From contig CAYHVV010000001.1 in the NCBI GenBank assembly GCA_964360115.1, positions 1 through 36,197 on the forward strand: 36,197 nt of DNA. The letters run 5' to 3'. A program made the translations under genes and the position numbers. Below are positions 4,449 to 36,197 of the stretch, in pieces. The notes beneath the pieces are model-generated. The model was given only the letters and a program-made list of their open reading frames with translations. It searched no databases and was not told where the DNA came from. The stretch comes from an uncultured Methanosarcinales archaeon. Lineage in GTDB: Archaea > Nanobdellota > Nanobdellia > Woesearchaeales > GW2011-AR9. Positions within the stretch are counted from its first letter, which is position 1, and each line of letters opens with the position of its first letter.

Positions 4449-5117
4449 ATGGGGCTTCTGGAAACCGGATTTATGACTTTTATTGACATCATCCTACATC
4501 TTGATGTTTATCTTAAAGCGGTAATTGAAACCTATCATCTTTGGACTTATGCCCTTCTGTTTGTAGTAATTTTCTGTGAAACGGGCTTGATTTTTACCCC
4601 TTTCCTCCCGGGAGATTCTCTTCTCTTTGCTGCCGGAGCTTTTGCCGCGCTGGGATCGTTAAATATTTATTTGGTCTTTTTCATAATTTTAATTGCCGCA
4701 TCTTTGGGAGATTTAGTAAATTACACTGCCGGAAATTATATCGGGCCAAAAATATTCAAAAAAGATGATTCCTTGCTATTCAAAAAAAAATATTTAGTGC
4801 AAACAGAAAAATTTTATGAAAAGCATGGCTCAAAGACTATCATCGCTGCCCGGTTCATACCCATCATCAGGACCTTTGCTCCATTTATTGCCGGAATCGG
4901 AAAAATGAAAGTACTTCGGTTTATATTTTACAATATTACTGGAGCCTTGTTATGGTGCTCTTTCTTTATTTTCGGCGGATACTTTTTTGGTAATATTTCC
5001 TTTGTTAAGGAACATTTCAGCTGGGTAATCCTGGGTATAGTTGTATTATCTTTCCTTCCAGTAATAAAAGGAGTATTGCAAAGCTGGCTTAGGAGCAGAC
5101 AAAACAAAAATCAATGA
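4449..5117 (+). CDS. DedA-family membrane protein
   Basis: CETGLIFTPFLPGDSLLFAAGAFAA plus ARFIPIIRTFAPFIAG are DedA / SNARE-associated family signatures. Multiple TM helices. Confidence 0.85.
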   Translation: MGLLETGFMTFIDIILHLDVYLKAVIETYHLWTYALLFVVIFCETGLIFTPFLPGDSLLFAAGAFAALGSLNIYLVFFIILIAASLGDLVNYTAGNYIGPKIFKKDDSLLFKKKYLVQTEKFYEKHGSKTIIAARFIPIIRTFAPFIAGIGKMKVLRFIFYNITGALLWCSFFIFGGYFFGNISFVKEHFSWVILGIVVLSFLPVIKGVLQSWLRSRQNKNQ

Positions 5118-5229
5118 AAAAGTTTACTTCTTAGGAATTTACAAATCGTAAGATTAAATCAGTTTCAATTTCAACAGAAGAGGAATCAGAGATTGGAAAT
5201 TTTTATAAAGAACAACATATTCATTTTTA

Positions 5230-6468
5230 ATGATGAGAGGTAAAACATCACTGGTGTTGTTAGTAATTCTATTATTTGTAATAAGTTGTGCTCCTCAAGA
5301 ACTTTCCGATGAAGAACTGGAAAAAAAGTTAAGCAATTTATCTGATCAAGAACTTCAAGAGATTGTTAATCAAGGAAATGAAAAGGGAGCAATTGCCGGC
5401 CAAGCTTATTACAACGTAAAGTATGGGGCTTCTAATCAAAAAGTCTATAATTCAGCGAAGAATATTATGAATAAAAAGATTCCTAAATCGGAAGTTCCTT
5501 TGCCAGAAAAAATAATTAATTCTCCACCAGTTTTAAACTTCATAGGCAACAAACAAATCCAGAAAGGGGATTTATTGACTTTTACAGTTAGTGCAACTGA
5601 CGCTAATAATGATCCCTTAGTTTACAGTGCCCAAGTATTGCCTCTTGGTGCTAGTTTTGATGTAACCCTTCAGACTTTTAACTGGATTCCAGCTTACAAT
5701 CAGGTCGGTATTAATCCGATTACGTTTAAAGTAAGTGATGGGAAAAAAGAGGATGAAGAAACAATTAACATTACCGTTTTGGATTCTGTTGTTTTAAATT
5801 CTTGTGTGCCTAAACCAAATGGTTTAGTCGGCTGGTGGGATGGAGATAATGTTAGCGGAACGACTGCCTATGATTTGGTTGGAACACACCATGGAACTTT
5901 AGCTAATGGAGCTAAAATAGGTAAAGGTATGGTGGGAAATGCTTTTGATTTTAGTGGTAATAACGGCTATGTTGGTGTTGCGCATCATACAGACTTTAAT
6001 ATAGATTATAGCTGGTTTATTGATGCTTGGATAATGCCTTTATCATACCCTGCTCCCGGAAAAAGAGGAGCCATATTGATGAAATGGGTTGATGGTGGAG
6101 AAAACAAGGCCTTGGAGATTGGTTCTGATGGAAAAGTGTTTGTTACACTTGTAAATGTGCAAAAACAATCTGCTCAAGTATATTCAACTACTAATCTATT
6201 AATGAATCGGTTTACTTTCGTAGCTGCAAGTTATAATGGAACAGCTTTAAACTTATATATTAATGGTCAGCTTGATAACAGTCTTCCTTTATCAATAGAT
6301 GTTTCAGACTCTTATGGAACTTTTTATATGGGAAATCATCCAACAAGAGGTTCAGAATTTGTTCCTTTTGATGGCTTGATTGACGAAGTTGAATGGAGTA
6401 AAGAAGTTCCAACAGAACAGAAAATACTGGAATTATTTTCTTCTACTAGTAAAGGGAAATGTAAATAA
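5230..6468 (+). CDS. Secreted lipoprotein: cadherin/Ig-like domain + LamG (concanavalin-like lectin) domain
   Basis: Lipobox LLFVISC. Ig-like module PPVLNFIGNKQIQKGDLLTFTVSATDANNDPLVYS. LamG pattern LVGWWDGDN...GNAFDFSGNNGYV...LYINGQLD...FDGLIDEVEW. Confidence 0.7.
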   Translation: MMRGKTSLVLLVILLFVISCAPQELSDEELEKKLSNLSDQELQEIVNQGNEKGAIAGQAYYNVKYGASNQKVYNSAKNIMNKKIPKSEVPLPEKIINSPPVLNFIGNKQIQKGDLLTFTVSATDANNDPLVYSAQVLPLGASFDVTLQTFNWIPAYNQVGINPITFKVSDGKKEDEETINITVLDSVVLNSCVPKPNGLVGWWDGDNVSGTTAYDLVGTHHGTLANGAKIGKGMVGNAFDFSGNNGYVGVAHHTDFNIDYSWFIDAWIMPLSYPAPGKRGAILMKWVDGGENKALEIGSDGKVFVTLVNVQKQSAQVYSTTNLLMNRFTFVAASYNGTALNLYINGQLDNSLPLSIDVSDSYGTFYMGNHPTRGSEFVPFDGLIDEVEWSKEVPTEQKILELFSSTSKGKCK

Positions 6469-6487
6469 GGTGTTAACTTTATTTATT

Positions 6488-33887: not shown

Positions 33888-34703
33888 TCAATGATTTTCC
33901 ATTTTTCTTAACATCTCTTCAGAATAGATTCCTGTTTTGCACAACTGCTCTAATTCTTGATCTGAAAGTTTCAATAACTGCTCCAACCATGAAGTAATAG
34001 CTGTATTTTCAACGGAAGTTGCAACTAGATTAATGATAGTTATTTCAACTAGTCTTGTATATATTTCTTCCGTAGTTAGTCTGTCAATTTCATTTAGCTT
34101 CTCCTTTTTTTTAGTTAAGAAGACAACTATATTTGGAGGTTGATAGAAAGTATCTTCATGATCTATACTATTTCTTAATCTAGAATCAACGGTCGATTTT
34201 ATTTTAGCTAGAGAAATACTATATTTTCCTTCTAGTTCCTTAAGACATTCTTTTAGCAGTACCACGTTTAAATGATTTTTCTTAGGCTTTAATCCAGCCA
34301 ACCACACCAATCTTCTAAGATTGTTCCAGAATGATTCGAGGGACGATGCATAAGCTCTAGCTAAAGCTATTGCTGCCGTTTCATCATCTTTTGTTTTGTT
34401 TTTATAATCGCCAACTACTGAAGCCATTTCACTCATCCTTTGTATCATCATTATTCTTCTAGTGTCATCTATCAGCATACTACTATGAATGCTTCTTTTT
34501 TCCATCATCTTGCCTATTAAACTCGCATATTCCCTATGATATTCCAAGAATAATTTTAATAATGCTGGTTTCCCCGAAAATATGGGCAATGATGTTAAAT
34601 TTTTTGGGAAATTGTTCTGATGACTTATCATCTCTTGGATGCTTTTTCTTGGCTCCTTAAGAAAAATTTCTTGTCTCTTCCTTCTTTCTTCAAAGTGATC
34701 CAT
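33888..34703 (-). CDS. Orphan all-helical protein with an R-N-x3-H (HEPN-type) motif
   Basis: SRLRNSIDHED (Arg codon 34173-34175, His codon 34158-34160) matches the RNxxxH form of the HEPN RNase motif. The composition predicts helices throughout. No other family recognised. Confidence 0.45.
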   Translation of the reverse strand: MDHFEERRKRQEIFLKEPRKSIQEMISHQNNFPKNLTSLPIFSGKPALLKLFLEYHREYASLIGKMMEKRSIHSSMLIDDTRRIMMIQRMSEMASVVGDYKNKTKDDETAAIALARAYASSLESFWNNLRRLVWLAGLKPKKNHLNVVLLKECLKELEGKYSISLAKIKSTVDSRLRNSIDHEDTFYQPPNIVVFLTKKKEKLNEIDRLTTEEIYTRLVEITIINLVATSVENTAITSWLEQLLKLSDQELEQLCKTGIYSEEMLRKMENH

Positions 34704-34740
34704 TCTAATCTCAAAATTGAACTGATTTAAATAGTTTTAT

Positions 34741-36197
34741 TCACTTCGCAATACAATAAGAAGACGCATCAAAAATAGATAAATCTGGCTGGAAATCTAG
34801 TGTCTTAGTTTCGCCAGGCTGGATGACCCAGCAACCGATCTCTTCATCTTTTATTGCTCCGTTAGCATATATCGAAGCAATCGCACATCCTGCTCCTGGC
34901 ACTTCCCCGCTATTAGAAAACGTGATCGGCACGGAAGCGACAAAGAAGTCTTGTAAATTGAAACTTATTCCGCACTCACCAATATTCTTAGTTATGGAAG
35001 GAAGTTTGATGGTTGCATCTACAGGTAATATAACCTGAGGATTATTATTCCAGTCAAGTTTAATGATTTTAGTGTTTTCTTTATTCTGGTTGACATTATT
35101 TATTCCAGATGCTAAGGCATTATCAAAGTTTAGTGAAGTAGTTTCAATAGGCACATACACACCATCTTTGTTAATATATCCAGCGAAAGCATGTCCTGGC
35201 GTTAGGAAAATTACTGGCTCCATGCCTATCGCAGAAAGTAAGGAAGCATACAATACTGCATTGTCTTCACAGTCCCCAGCTTTGTTGGATAGTGTTTCGG
35301 TAGGGAATTGTACATAATCCCCCTGCTTGTTAAATGGATCATTGACATACTGAATGCCGTAGGCTCGCATGGATTCTAGAAGCCATCTCGCCGCTAATTC
35401 TTGCTCTTTCACTGTCCCTACACTGGATGCCGCTGCTAGTCCAGAAGTTGCCCTGCTCGCAAATTCTTTGATTATAGGGTGATTGGGTGTTATCCATGAC
35501 GAAATCTCATAAGGATTAGACCAATCCATGAAATTCTTGCCCATCAGTTGCAGAGTTGCAGTATCGGAACTTGAATGTGGTCTATTGTGTTCATCTTCAA
35601 AGTTTAGCTGTATATTTGTTTTCAATTGCATCTGGCTAGTAATGTCTAAAGCCTTAGTGGTAAAATCTAACTTTACCTCTCTGGATTGTTGATCATTAAC
35701 GTAAATAGCTCCCAAGTTGATAATTTCATCATTGAAATAACTGTCAGGAGAAGATATTCTTACAGAAACATCTTTTGCCATAGAGTTTCCAGAATTAGAA
35801 ATGCTGAGAGAAGCAATTGTTCTTTCTTTTGCTTTGAGATAAGTTACGGATTTAAGACCATATTGCTGAAGGCTTGTTGTTAATACGGGCTTTAGTTCAA
35901 TGCATTGATTTTGTTCACACTTGTAACCAGTAGAACAACCTGCATCTTGACAACAATTCTCAGCTGTTTCTCCTTCTTCCTTTATTCCGTTGCCACAGAC
36001 AGCTAATTTTTTGCAGATGTTTTGATCGCAATCATATCCTTGTGGACATCCGCAATCTATGCAACAAGTGCTAGAATCTTCTCCTGATTCGCATTTCTCG
36101 TTGCCACAATACGTCTTTTCTATTTCTATAGCTTTTTCTACCGGAGCACAGCTAGATAATAAAAGTAACAAAGAAAGAGATAAAATTAGTATTTTCA
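34741..36197 (-). CDS. Transglutaminase-like (papain-fold) lipoprotein with a Cys-rich N-terminus; 5' end runs off the window
   Basis: GDCEDNAVLYASLLSAIGMEPVIFLTPGHAFAGY is the transglutaminase-core Cys ... His pattern. Reading upstream of the track's TTG start gives (M)KILILSLSLLLLLSSC, a lipobox, with the ATG apparently starting at window position 36198. Confidence 0.75.
   Translation of the reverse strand, partial: KILILSLSLLLLLSSCAPVEKAIEIEKTYCGNEKCESGEDSSTCCIDCGCPQGYDCDQNICKKLAVCGNGIKEEGETAENCCQDAGCSTGYKCEQNQCIELKPVLTTSLQQYGLKSVTYLKAKERTIASLSISNSGNSMAKDVSVRISSPDSYFNDEIINLGAIYVNDQQSREVKLDFTTKALDITSQMQLKTNIQLNFEDEHNRPHSSSDTATLQLMGKNFMDWSNPYEISSWITPNHPIIKEFASRATSGLAAASSVGTVKEQELAARWLLESMRAYGIQYVNDPFNKQGDYVQFPTETLSNKAGDCEDNAVLYASLLSAIGMEPVIFLTPGHAFAGYINKDGVYVPIETTSLNFDNALASGINNVNQNKENTKIIKLDWNNNPQVILPVDATIKLPSITKNIGECGISFNLQDFFVASVPITFSNSGEVPGAGCAIASIYANGAIKDEEIGCWVIQPGETKTLDFQPDLSIFDASSYCIAK

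What the first reader, a model, noticed from the sequence alone, without database searches (positions are those of the whole stretch)
5062..34800. Recurrent architecture: host gene 3' end, then a small cassette, then an in-frame decoy copy of that 3' end; seen three times in 36 kb with no integrase in sight
Seen in sequence: in three places, the last 10-23 codons plus stop codon of a gene are duplicated just beyond an adjacent 1-2-gene cassette. The cases are DedA with the LamG lipoprotein, the CBS gene with AbrB/RelE, and the transglutaminase-like gene with the HEPN-like orphan. In every case the copy keeps the reading frame and the stop. Topology is identical each time: the real 3' end, then the cassette, then the copy. 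Established knowledge: integrative elements that target gene 3' ends (classically tRNA genes) leave exactly such attL/attR duplications and supply a replacement 3' end. Inference: this genome acquires small accessory cassettes through a 3'-end-targeting mechanism acting in trans, or these are decayed remnants of larger elements. Preservation of frame and stop in the non-functional copy deserves explanation.
Basis: partly seen in the sequence, partly recalled or inferred. Interest (0 to 1): 0.75.

Follow-up and report, generated by a model that had tools for sequence, protein, structure and literature searches.

The report
Displaced gene ends flanking inserted cassettes
In this groundwater DPANN archaeon, small defence-type or surface-protein cassettes have been spliced into the tail ends of resident genes, leaving the old tail as a dead copy beyond each cassette. 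This scar is well known from bacterial genomic islands, but here no recombinase gene is nearby.

Summary
Three genes have a copy of their 3' end just beyond a neighbouring 1-2-gene cassette: CBS (71-78 nt, 94-97% identical), transglutaminase-like (60-74 nt, 78-82%) and DedA (17 nt exact). In a scan of 258 gene ends from related genomes, only these three and one relative stood out.

- A sister genome (L002) has a clean empty site for the AbrB/RelE cassette.
- A relative (L017) has a different cassette, with its own decoy, at the same transglutaminase-like gene end.
- That gene's two tails differ the way two functional gene ends differ (P about 6e-4), so one tail was imported.
- The DedA copy matches another strain's allele and does not include the gene's own stop.
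- Keeping frame and stop is not surprising on its own (P = 0.38).
- A diversity-generating retroelement, an assembly artefact and chance are rejected.
- No recombinase is encoded in the contig.

The likeliest mechanism is insertion by a single crossover within a short stretch of gene-end homology, which displaces the resident end. A trans-acting site-specific integrase, or decay of larger integrated elements, is not excluded.

The AbrB/RelE module also occurs elsewhere, between copies of a conserved ~100-nt junction element. The same element flanks a fourth cassette (NTase/HEPN) in this window. This is a known kind of scar in a new setting.

The parts
4449..5117 (+). DedA/VTT-domain gene (target gene of case 1)
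   Evidence: Pfam VTT_dom 7.5e-20. Orthologues in L002, L039 and L040.
5074..5090 (+). Segment near the DedA 3' end that is repeated. It lies 27-43 nt before the end of the stop codon.
   Evidence: 17-nt exact match with 6500-6516. E 1e-5 in the unbiased scan.
5230..6468 (+). Cassette 1: lipoprotein with Ig-like and LamG (Laminin_G_3) domains
   Evidence: Pfam hits. Present after DedA in L002 and L039. L040 has a 110-aa gene instead.
6496..6528 (+). Decayed DedA-end fragment ('GILQSWLRKT*'). The core repeat is 6500-6516.
   Evidence: Matches the DedA allele of L039 at 22 of 23 positions (my alignment by eye of the sequences printed), including its CGA codon, better than it matches the window's own gene. 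Absent from L002. It fits the family C-terminus KG[IV]LQSWLR.
7534..7611 (-). Displaced copy of the CBS 3' end (26 codons, stop, and 3 nt beyond)
   Evidence: Together with its downstream flank it is collinear with the empty site in L002 (89% over 205 nt).
7609..8194 (+). Cassette 2: AbrB/MazE-type antitoxin (7666-7932) and RelE/ParE toxin (7926-8177), with their own promoter and a palindromic operator. It is a conserved module with inverted ends.
   Evidence: Pfam hits. 81-85% nucleotide identity to L032, L034, L045 and L047 in unrelated contexts, with the module edge abutting the decoy.
8195..8235 (-). T-rich spacer of about 41 nt between the CBS stop and the cassette. It was probably imported together with the new CBS end.
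   Evidence: It resembles the T-rich tracts that follow the CBS stop in other orthologues. It is unlike the L002 and decoy flank. Inference.
8236..8313 (-). Functional CBS 3' end (repeat copy attached to the gene)
8239..9399 (-). CBS-domain gene (target gene of case 2)
   Evidence: Pfam CBS 9e-24. 13 orthologous loci.
33791..33864 (-). Displaced copy of the transglutaminase-like gene 3' end ('VDFQPDLSIFDLSFYCTAK*')
   Evidence: It keeps all 10 family-conserved residues. Five codons differ only synonymously.
33888..34703 (-). Cassette 3: 271-aa protein of a rare family with an invariant RNxxxH (HEPN-type) motif
   Evidence: 26 representative homologues among 1.84 billion proteins. R177, N178 and H182 are invariant. 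No Pfam, PADLOC or NCBIfam hit.
34726..34799 (-). Functional 3' end of the transglutaminase-like gene (repeat copy attached to the gene)
34741..36171 (-). Transglutaminase-like gene (target gene of case 3). It is open to the window end.
   Evidence: Pfam DUF553 (transglutaminase-like), 9e-5. 55 homologues with the C-terminal motif FQPD[IL]S[IV]F..YC.
240..344 (-). Junction element, copy A (left flank of the NTase/HEPN cassette 434-1398)
1517..1628 (-). Junction element, copy B (right flank of the NTase/HEPN cassette). It carries the 28-nt motif AATTGAATATAAT..TGTTA.

Best explanation
Each repeat pair is the scar of a single-crossover insertion guided by short homology (Campbell-type, or 'one-sided homology').

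Proposed sequence of events:
1. Incoming DNA from a related strain carried the last few dozen bases of an orthologous gene together with the cassette that lay next to it.
2. It recombined with the resident gene inside that short stretch of homology.
3. The gene now reads into the (partly) imported end and stays intact.
4. The resident end is pushed beyond the cassette, where it is a silent fragment with no start codon.

No element-encoded integrase is needed. Host homologous or microhomology-mediated recombination would be enough. The two direct repeats then allow the cassette to loop out again as a circle carrying one gene-end copy, which could re-insert into any strain that has the gene.

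Insertions appear to 'target' 3' ends because only events that leave a complete gene survive. The convergent 3'-3' gaps are also the most permissive places for insertion.

Shown: the insertions, the empty site, recurrence at one gene, the foreign origin of one tail, and the absence of a recombinase in the contig. Inferred: the circular or linear intermediate, and the enzyme.
For: - Empty site in L002. One 71-nt segment of L002 aligns to both window copies, and the window carries 702 extra bp, equal to the cassette plus one repeat.
- L016-L018, whose transglutaminase-like gene is 90% identical, have a different cassette of about 500 bp followed by their own decoy 'FFDSSPYCIAK*'.
- The window's two transglutaminase-like tails differ at 11 of 60 nt. 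Five codons differ only synonymously and every family-conserved residue is kept. P = 6e-4 under random decay. So both tails evolved as working gene ends, and one is imported.
- The DedA decoy carries the allele of L039 (CGA codon) rather than the window's own.
- The spacer after the live CBS stop looks like the terminator tract of other CBS orthologues. The decoy keeps the native flank seen in L002.
- Repeat lengths vary (17, 35-42, 60-74, 71-78 nt). Each ends at or just past the stop, where homology between strains ends.
- The AbrB/RelE module occurs at unrelated sites elsewhere, without any CBS fragment.
- The CBS-downstream slot holds a different gene in nearly every one of 13 genomes, and none has an integrase there.
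- No recombinase was found in any window ORF.
Against: - The two transglutaminase-like copies share at most 13 identical bases in a row, which is poor substrate for RadA-type homologous recombination. A recombinase acting on a short core would fit better.
- The repeat in L017 starts exactly at 'TTTTTGAT', where divergence within the window pair jumps from about 9% to about 30%. This could mark a common crossover core.
- The two CBS copies are more alike (97%) than either is to L002 (94%). That pair could equally be an in-situ duplication.
- No circular form, donor arrangement or read-level polymorphism was seen.
- The rest of the genome could not be searched for recombinases.
- The empty site in L002 could be a secondary loop-out rather than the ancestral state.
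Confidence: 0.45

Rival explanations
1. The repeats are true att sites (attL/attR) of site-specific integrative elements that target gene 3' ends. The cassettes would then be either integrase-less satellites moved in trans by a recombinase encoded elsewhere, or the last remnants of larger elements, like bacterial cis-mobilizable elements (CIMEs).
For: - The architecture is that of CIMEs: decayed elements that keep their att sites but no recombination genes, at the 3' ends of rpmG, rpsI, fda and rplL (PMC7563491). Integrated tycheposons are likewise flanked by partial tRNA attachment sites (10.1101/2020.12.28.424599).
- Two independent cassettes sit at the same transglutaminase-like gene end, with a possible shared core 'TTTTTGAT'.
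- The transglutaminase-like copies are too diverged for efficient homologous recombination.
- L016 encodes a resolvase-family serine recombinase 5 kb upstream of its transglutaminase-like gene.
- In L045 the same toxin-antitoxin module lies about 10 nt after a sequence I read as a tRNA gene 3' end, a classic att location. No tRNA search was run on L045.
Against: - No integrase in the 36-kb contig, nor next to CBS or the transglutaminase-like gene in about 25 related loci.
- The AbrB/RelE module carries no fixed attP. It sits at different sites in other genomes.
- Repeat lengths and left edges differ even at the same gene.
- The CBS insert is a clean 624 bp whose left edge coincides with a conserved module edge. 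Random deletion of a larger element would not be expected to produce that.
Confidence: 0.3
2. The repeats are target-site duplications made in situ when a cassette bounded by inverted repeats inserted through widely staggered cuts or a replicative, template-switching event. Both copies would then descend from the host's own sequence.
For: - The two CBS copies are 97% identical and closer to each other than to L002.
- The AbrB/RelE module has inverted ends: TTTGAGCTGGGGC ... GCCCCAGCTCAAA in L032 and L047, and TTTTAAGCAGGGAC ... GCCCTAGCTCAAATT in the window.
Against: - The transglutaminase-like and DedA copies were not identical at birth, given the selection-shaped divergence and the foreign allele.
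- Lengths of 17-78 nt are far beyond, and more variable than, the target duplications I know of for transposases.
- No duplication flanks the inverted ends directly.
- No transposase is present.
Confidence: 0.1
3. Diversity-generating retroelement: the gene end is a variable region and the downstream copy is its template repeat.
For: - The topology is the same: a gene 3' end plus a nearby near-copy.
- DGRs are, to my knowledge, common in DPANN archaea.
- A distant transglutaminase-like homologue (L020-L024) has an Avd-like gene downstream.
Against: - Mismatches are not adenine-specific. The decoy base is A at 3 of 5 (CBS), 1 of 11 (transglutaminase-like) and 2 of 5 (L017) mismatches.
- No reverse transcriptase is present.
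- The repeats are short.
Confidence: 0.01
4. Chance similarity or a metagenome-assembly chimera.
For: The DedA match is only 17 nt, and the contig comes from a metagenome-assembled genome.
Against: - Unbiased scan: 4 strong hits among 258 gene ends, all better than every control.
- About 0.12 chance repeats are expected per window.
- Five independent assemblies reproduce the CBS junctions.
- The L016-L018 arrangement is seen in three samples.
Confidence: 0.02

Closest known systems
Cis-mobilizable elements (CIMEs) and other att-flanked islands at the 3' ends of protein genes in Streptococcus (fda, rpsI, rpmG, rplL)
   Same: A gene 3' end, then a small cargo segment with no recombination genes, then a repeat of the gene end. 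The target gene stays intact (PMC7563491).
   Different: - CIMEs derive from conjugative (ICE) or mobilizable (IME) integrated elements and use a known integrase family with a fixed att core. Here no integrase or parent element is seen.
- The repeats here vary in length.
- The host is a DPANN archaeon.
- The inserts here are 0.6-1.3 kb.
Tycheposons and the degenerate elements in Prochlorococcus genomic islands
   Same: Streamlined genomes gain cargo at fixed hot spots. Integrated elements are flanked by one host and one element copy of the attachment motif. Degenerate remnants and extra partial copies accumulate (10.1101/2020.12.28.424599).
   Different: Tycheposons carry tyrosine or serine recombinases, and in that paper the attachment sites are tRNA genes. 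Here the targets are protein-gene ends and no recombinase is found.
Homology-facilitated illegitimate recombination and Campbell-type single-crossover integration
   Same: Foreign DNA enters through homology on one side only (PMC3240628). From my own knowledge, a single crossover of a circle duplicates the homologous segment as direct repeats.
   Different: These processes are known from competent or conjugating bacteria in the laboratory. They have not been described as a recurrent natural route for cassettes in DPANN archaea. The homology used here would be very short (about 20-80 nt).
Displaced 'orphan' C-terminal modules of Rhs and CdiA polymorphic toxins (from my own knowledge)
   Same: An incoming 3' end plus a linked downstream gene replaces the resident end by recombination at a conserved motif. 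The old end remains downstream as an orphan.
   Different: The swapped tail here is only about 10 residues, not a toxin domain. The linked genes are not immunity genes for it.
Integron cassette arrays and CALINs (attC clusters lacking an integrase), including those reported in Nanoarchaeota
   Same: This comparison applies to the junction-element arrays, not the gene-end repeats. Toxin-antitoxin and defence cassettes are separated by a conserved ~100-nt repeat with inverted ends. Toxin-antitoxin systems are the most common predicted cassette function in archaeal integrons, and most archaeal integrons found were CALINs (PMC9668308).
   Different: - No GTTRRRY/RYYYAAC cores by inspection.
- No significant attC-type hairpin.
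- No IntI.
- The gene-end repeats themselves are unrelated to attC.

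Membership tests
att-flanked integrative element without integrase (CIME-like or satellite) | Direct repeats flank the insert, and one of them overlaps the 3' end of an intact target gene | tested here: met
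   (CBS and the transglutaminase-like gene). DedA meets it only in decayed form.
att-flanked integrative element without integrase (CIME-like or satellite) | An empty target site (attB) exists in relatives | tested here: met
   L002 for CBS. Not found for the transglutaminase-like gene. L040 has a different gene after DedA.
att-flanked integrative element without integrase (CIME-like or satellite) | A cognate site-specific recombinase in the genome, or in intact relatives of the element | tested here: not met
   None in the 36-kb contig or beside the sites in about 25 related loci. The rest of the genome could not be searched.
att-flanked integrative element without integrase (CIME-like or satellite) | The same crossover core in independent insertions | tested here: inconclusive
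   The window and L017 repeats at the transglutaminase-like gene both include 'TTTTTGAT' and run to the stop, but their left edges differ. No shared core was evident by eye between the CBS, transglutaminase-like and DedA sites.
Integron or CALIN cassette | attC sites: imperfect hairpins with R''/R' cores (RYYYAAC and GTTRRRY) | tested here: not met
   The junction elements show only a terminal 5-bp CGCCC/GGGCG pairing. Fold z-scores are mostly non-significant and I saw no canonical cores. No attC covariance model was available.
Integron or CALIN cassette | An IntI integrase and an attI site | tested here: not met
   No tyrosine recombinase in the window. L032, L034 and L047 carry no recombinase family in their precomputed gene tables.
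Integron or CALIN cassette | An array of promoter-less cassettes separated by related repeats | tested here: inconclusive
   L032 has the order element - AbrB/RelE - element - 98-aa gene - element. However, the cassettes appear to carry their own promoters.
Diversity-generating retroelement | Adenine-specific mismatches between template and variable repeats, and a reverse transcriptase nearby | tested here: not met
   for the mismatch spectrum. No reverse transcriptase.
DDE-type transposon or mobile insertion cassette | Terminal inverted repeats plus short target duplications that are identical and of fixed length | tested here: not met
   The AbrB/RelE module has inverted ends, but nothing is duplicated directly next to them. 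The gene-end repeats are long, variable and non-identical.
Type II toxin-antitoxin module (cassette 2) | Adjacent, overlapping small genes for an AbrB/MazE-fold antitoxin and a RelE/ParE toxin | tested here: met
   PF04014 at 5e-7, PF15781 and PF05016 at 6e-7 and 3e-6. The two genes overlap by 7 nt.
HEPN-domain protein (cassette 3) | An invariant Rx4-6H motif in an all-helical protein | tested here: inconclusive
   RNxxxH (R177, N178, H182) is invariant in 18 homologues. There is no HEPN family hit, and the structure model was unusable (pLDDT 37).

The most novel reading that the evidence does not exclude
DPANN archaea may have a cassette-shuffling system of their own that does not depend on an integrase. 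Defence and toxin-antitoxin modules with inverted ends would normally sit in arrays separated by a conserved ~100-nt junction element, consisting of a 28-nt motif, a GC-rich segment with a small hairpin, and inverted termini. These modules would be excised and captured at gene 3' ends through short homology. That would be an integron-like platform with neither IntI nor attC hairpins. It would explain how these reduced, host-dependent cells keep acquiring accessory genes.
Probability: 0.15. Interest if true: 0.8.

Novelty: new variant of a known kind. Interest (0 to 1): 0.55.

Why it matters
As far as I know, how DPANN archaea, with their tiny genomes and symbiotic lifestyle, exchange genes is poorly understood. 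One literature search here found no report of this pattern in DPANN.

This contig gives a concrete and testable picture. Very small toxin-antitoxin, defence or surface-protein cassettes enter at the ends of conserved genes together with a replacement gene tail. They leave a datable scar, and no recombinase gene is nearby.

If host recombination on 20-80 nt of homology is enough, then any gene end shared by a population can act as a landing pad. The repeat-flanked cassettes would then be mobile within that population without any dedicated machinery.

The displaced tails also record which strain donated what. The junction-element arrays found alongside may be a further, undescribed cassette platform.

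Tried and rejected
- tRNA and Rfam searches of the window found nothing, at both gathering and E<=1 thresholds. The repeats are not RNA-gene ends.
- DGR hypothesis: rejected on the mismatch spectrum and the absence of a reverse transcriptase.
- attC hypothesis for the junction elements: DNA folds of nine copy-strand combinations showed no consistent hairpin beyond a 5-bp terminal pairing.
- An nhmmer profile of the window element found no further copies. A broader profile found copies only beside toxin-antitoxin cassettes in L032, L033, L038, L047 and L034, and in L002.
- The one metagenome scan, using the module's promoter and operator as the pattern, gave only 4 loci.
- A viral-contig scan with the 28-nt motif gave 5 chance matches in unrelated sequence.
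- A search for an imported recombination tract in CBS found none. Identity to L002 is a uniform ~92%.
- A search for decoys after the transglutaminase-like gene in more distant relatives (L019-L024), and after CBS in 12 other genomes, found none.
- A repeat pair in L003 turned out to be internal to a giant gene.
- The single-sequence AlphaFold model of the 271-aa protein had pLDDT 37, so no fold search was run. A profile search of PDB sequences and Pfam scans of the 18 homologues found nothing relevant.
- The first look-up of the CBS protein failed because the GTG start was wrong. The ATG start at 9399 is the one on record.

Full report
**Context.** The window is a whole contig of a DPANN (Nanoarchaeota/Woesearchaeota-type) genome assembled from Hainich groundwater metagenomes. 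It encodes ribosomal protein L15e, archease, CorA and other archaeal genes. Identical pieces occur in ENA Hainich assemblies. GC content is 37%.

**Observation.** Repeat finding and self-BLAST confirm two strong pairs and one short pair.
- 7534-7611 and 8236-8313: 78 nt at 94%, with 71 nt at 97%.
- 33791-33864 and 34726-34799: 74 nt at 78%, with 63 nt at 82.5%.
- 5074-5090 and 6500-6516: 17 nt exact.

In each pair one copy is the live end of a gene: CBS, the transglutaminase-like gene, or DedA. The other copy lies just beyond the neighbouring cassette: AbrB/RelE, a 271-aa protein, or a LamG/Ig lipoprotein. The topology is the same each time.

I then took the last 75 nt of all 258 non-overlapped ORFs of at least 100 aa in about 320 kb of related loci and searched the 3 kb downstream on the same strand. 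Only four hits scored better than every reverse-complement control (best control 6e-4). These were the three window cases (E 4e-33, 7e-10 and 1e-5) and the transglutaminase-like gene of L017 (1.6e-4).

Five independent assemblies contain both CBS junctions.

Its 'in-frame stop' is a different codon.

No window ORF matches an integrase, transposase or reverse transcriptase.

**These are insertions.** A scan of GTDB genomes with the CBS protein returned 13 orthologous loci. In L002 (97% protein and ~92% DNA identity), CBS is followed directly by the 140-aa gene. One 71-nt stretch of L002, covering the gene end, the stop and 'ATT', aligns to both window copies. L002 is collinear with the window on both sides, so the window has 702 extra bp, equal to the cassette plus one repeat.

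The decoy keeps the native downstream flank. The live end is instead followed by a T-rich spacer of about 41 nt that resembles the tracts after the CBS stop in other orthologues.

Across the 13 genomes, the convergent gap between CBS and the acidic 158-aa gene holds a different gene almost every time. It never holds a recombinase. It is a turnover hot spot.

**Recurrence at one gene.** The closest transglutaminase-like homologue (P0001, 90% identical) lies on three contigs, L016-L018. There the gene is followed by a different cassette of about 500 bp (a 66-aa gene and small membrane ORFs). That cassette is followed by its own copy of the last 11 codons and stop, 'FFDSSPYCIAK*'. More distant relatives have no decoy.

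**One copy is foreign.** The family C-terminus is FQPD[IL]S[IV]F..YC.A.. The window's two tails differ at 11 of 60 nt. Five codons differ only synonymously and all ten conserved residues are kept. Under 11 random substitutions the probabilities are as follows.

| Outcome under random substitution | Probability |
|---|---|
| Open frame and intact stop | 0.38 |
| At least 5 codons differing only synonymously | 0.016 |
| Open frame, intact stop and all ten conserved residues retained | 6e-4 |

So frame and stop alone need no explanation. The overall pattern shows that both tails diverged while they were working gene ends in different lineages.

The DedA fragment matches the allele of L039 (88% orthologue), TATTGCAAAGCCGGCTTCGAAAC, including its CGA codon, better than it matches the window's own gene. 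It also fits the family's KG[IV]LQSWLR helix.

The DedA event is older. LamG follows DedA in L002 and L039 too, L002 lacks the fragment, and L040 has a 110-aa gene instead. The first ~35 nt of that 110-aa gene survive after the window's DedA stop.

**The cassette is a mobile module.** RelE has hundreds of close homologues in DPANN assemblies. The window segment 7609-8194, comprising promoter, palindromic operator, AbrB, RelE and 17 nt more, is 81-85% identical to segments of L032, L034, L045 and L047 in unrelated neighbourhoods. None of those has a CBS fragment. In L045 the module lies about 10 nt after a sequence I read as a tRNA gene 3' end (no tRNA search was run on it). The left edge of the module abuts the decoy.

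**Mechanism.** In situ target duplication is disfavoured by the non-identical, selection-shaped copies and by the variable lengths. A DGR is excluded.

Two models remain. In both, incoming DNA with its own copy of the gene end recombines inside that copy. This yields hybrid attL/attR-like repeats, an intact gene and a displaced resident end.

I favour recombination by host functions on short or one-sided homology (Campbell-type or homology-facilitated; PMC3240628), for four reasons.
- No recombinase is seen anywhere near these sites in about 25 loci.
- The repeats differ in length and share no evident core.
- The right edge of each repeat lies where homology between strains ends.
- The toxin-antitoxin module carries no fixed attachment site.

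Three points count against this and favour a site-specific enzyme.
- The transglutaminase-like copies share at most 13 identical bases in a row.
- The repeat in L017 begins at 'TTTTTGAT', exactly where divergence within the window pair rises.
- L016 encodes a resolvase 5 kb away.

I put these at 0.45 and 0.30. Either way, the repeats permit precise loop-out. This means the 'empty' site in L002 could be ancestral or secondary.

**Comparison with known systems.** The scar is that of att-flanked, integrase-less islands at gene 3' ends, such as CIMEs (PMC7563491). It also resembles the attachment-site repeats and degenerate remnants seen with tycheposons (10.1101/2020.12.28.424599), and the displaced orphan ends of Rhs/CdiA loci (from my own knowledge). 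What differs is the host, the very small size of the inserts, the density of three to four events in 36 kb, and the absence of any recombinase.

**A further finding.** The repeats at 240-344 and 1517-1628 flank an NTase/HEPN (MntA/HepT-like) pair. They belong to a family of ~100-nt junction elements that also bracket the AbrB/RelE module in L032, L047 and L034.
- Each element has a 28-nt motif, AGCTCAAATTG-N5-TAATCGATGTTA, directly after the stop codon.
- Then comes a GC-rich stretch with a small hairpin that shows compensatory changes (CCAC-GAA-GTGG, GCC-GAA-GGC, GCAAT-GAA-GTTGC).
- Then comes GAAGAGTTTGAGCTGGGGC, followed by the next promoter.
- L032 shows an array: element, AbrB/RelE, element, 98-aa gene, element.
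- The elements do not fold like attC sites, although CALINs with toxin-antitoxin cassettes are known in Nanoarchaeota (PMC9668308).
- The window's CBS-associated module keeps only the two inverted end-pieces of these elements.

**Verdict.** A dedicated 3'-end-targeting machine is not shown. This is a new variant of a known kind of scar, of moderate interest. The junction-element arrays are the most novel lead.

Noticed in passing
window 240-344 and 1517-1628; L032 509-596, 1157-1235, 1608-1676; L047 2598-2692, 3252-3352; L002 10956-11082: A fourth repeat-flanked cassette (NTase 434-970 and HEPN 973-1398) is bracketed by a ~100-nt GC-rich junction element. The same element family brackets AbrB/RelE modules in other DPANN genomes and forms a three-element array in L032. 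It has a 28-nt motif, a small hairpin with compensatory changes and inverted termini. It does not fold like an attC site.
   Followed up: partly
window 3738-3813 (+), 9434-9509 (+), 17662-17734 (-): A 76-nt element (89-95% identical) lies directly upstream of three genes: the cupredoxin gene, CBS and the 338-aa gene. It is always in the same orientation relative to the gene. It ends in TTTAAATA and contains the inverted repeat CTGACTATTC...GAATAGTCAG. It looks like a shared promoter/operator. L002 has it upstream of CBS.
   Followed up: partly
L002-L014, region between the CBS stop and the acidic 158-aa gene: This convergent gap holds a different gene, or no substantial gene, in nearly every one of 13 genomes (122 nt to 2.4 kb; for example a 245-aa, a 204-aa and a 184-aa gene). 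In L012 the CBS stop is lost and the ORF is extended by 23 codons at the junction.
   Followed up: partly
window 5118-5160: The ~35 nt after the DedA stop resemble the start of a 110-aa gene that follows DedA in L040 (ACTTACCAATTAGGAATTTATAAG versus ACTTCTTAGGAATTTACAAATCG). They look like a remnant of the gene that LamG displaced.
   Followed up: partly
L045 about 2620-2715: In another genome the same AbrB/RelE module starts about 10 nt after a sequence that reads like a complete tRNA gene. What looks like a second tRNA 3' end and a GC-rich segment lie just upstream. No tRNA search was run on this locus.
   Followed up: no
L016 3947-4564: A resolvase-family serine recombinase and a DUF559 endonuclease-like gene lie in a block of small genes about 5 kb upstream of the transglutaminase-like gene that carries its own decoy.
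   Followed up: no
window 13694-13773 and 17743-17822: The 475-aa and 338-aa proteins share a near-identical start, MSKRGQVTIF followed by a hydrophobic stretch. It resembles an archaeal pilin-type signal peptide. Both genes lie upstream of the giant gene.
   Followed up: no
window 18771-30290: A 3839-aa ORF has internal repeats and no Pfam match. L003 has a similar giant gene with internal repeats.
   Followed up: no
window 33888-34703: The 271-aa cassette protein belongs to a rare family (26 representative clusters among 1.84 billion proteins). R177, N178 and H182 (RNxxxH) are invariant, which suggests a HEPN-type RNase.
   Followed up: partly
L020-L024, downstream of the transglutaminase-like homologue P0002: An Avd-like (bAvd / 23S_rRNA_IVP) gene lies three genes downstream of a marine transglutaminase-like homologue. 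This hints at a DGR there, but not in this window.
   Followed up: no
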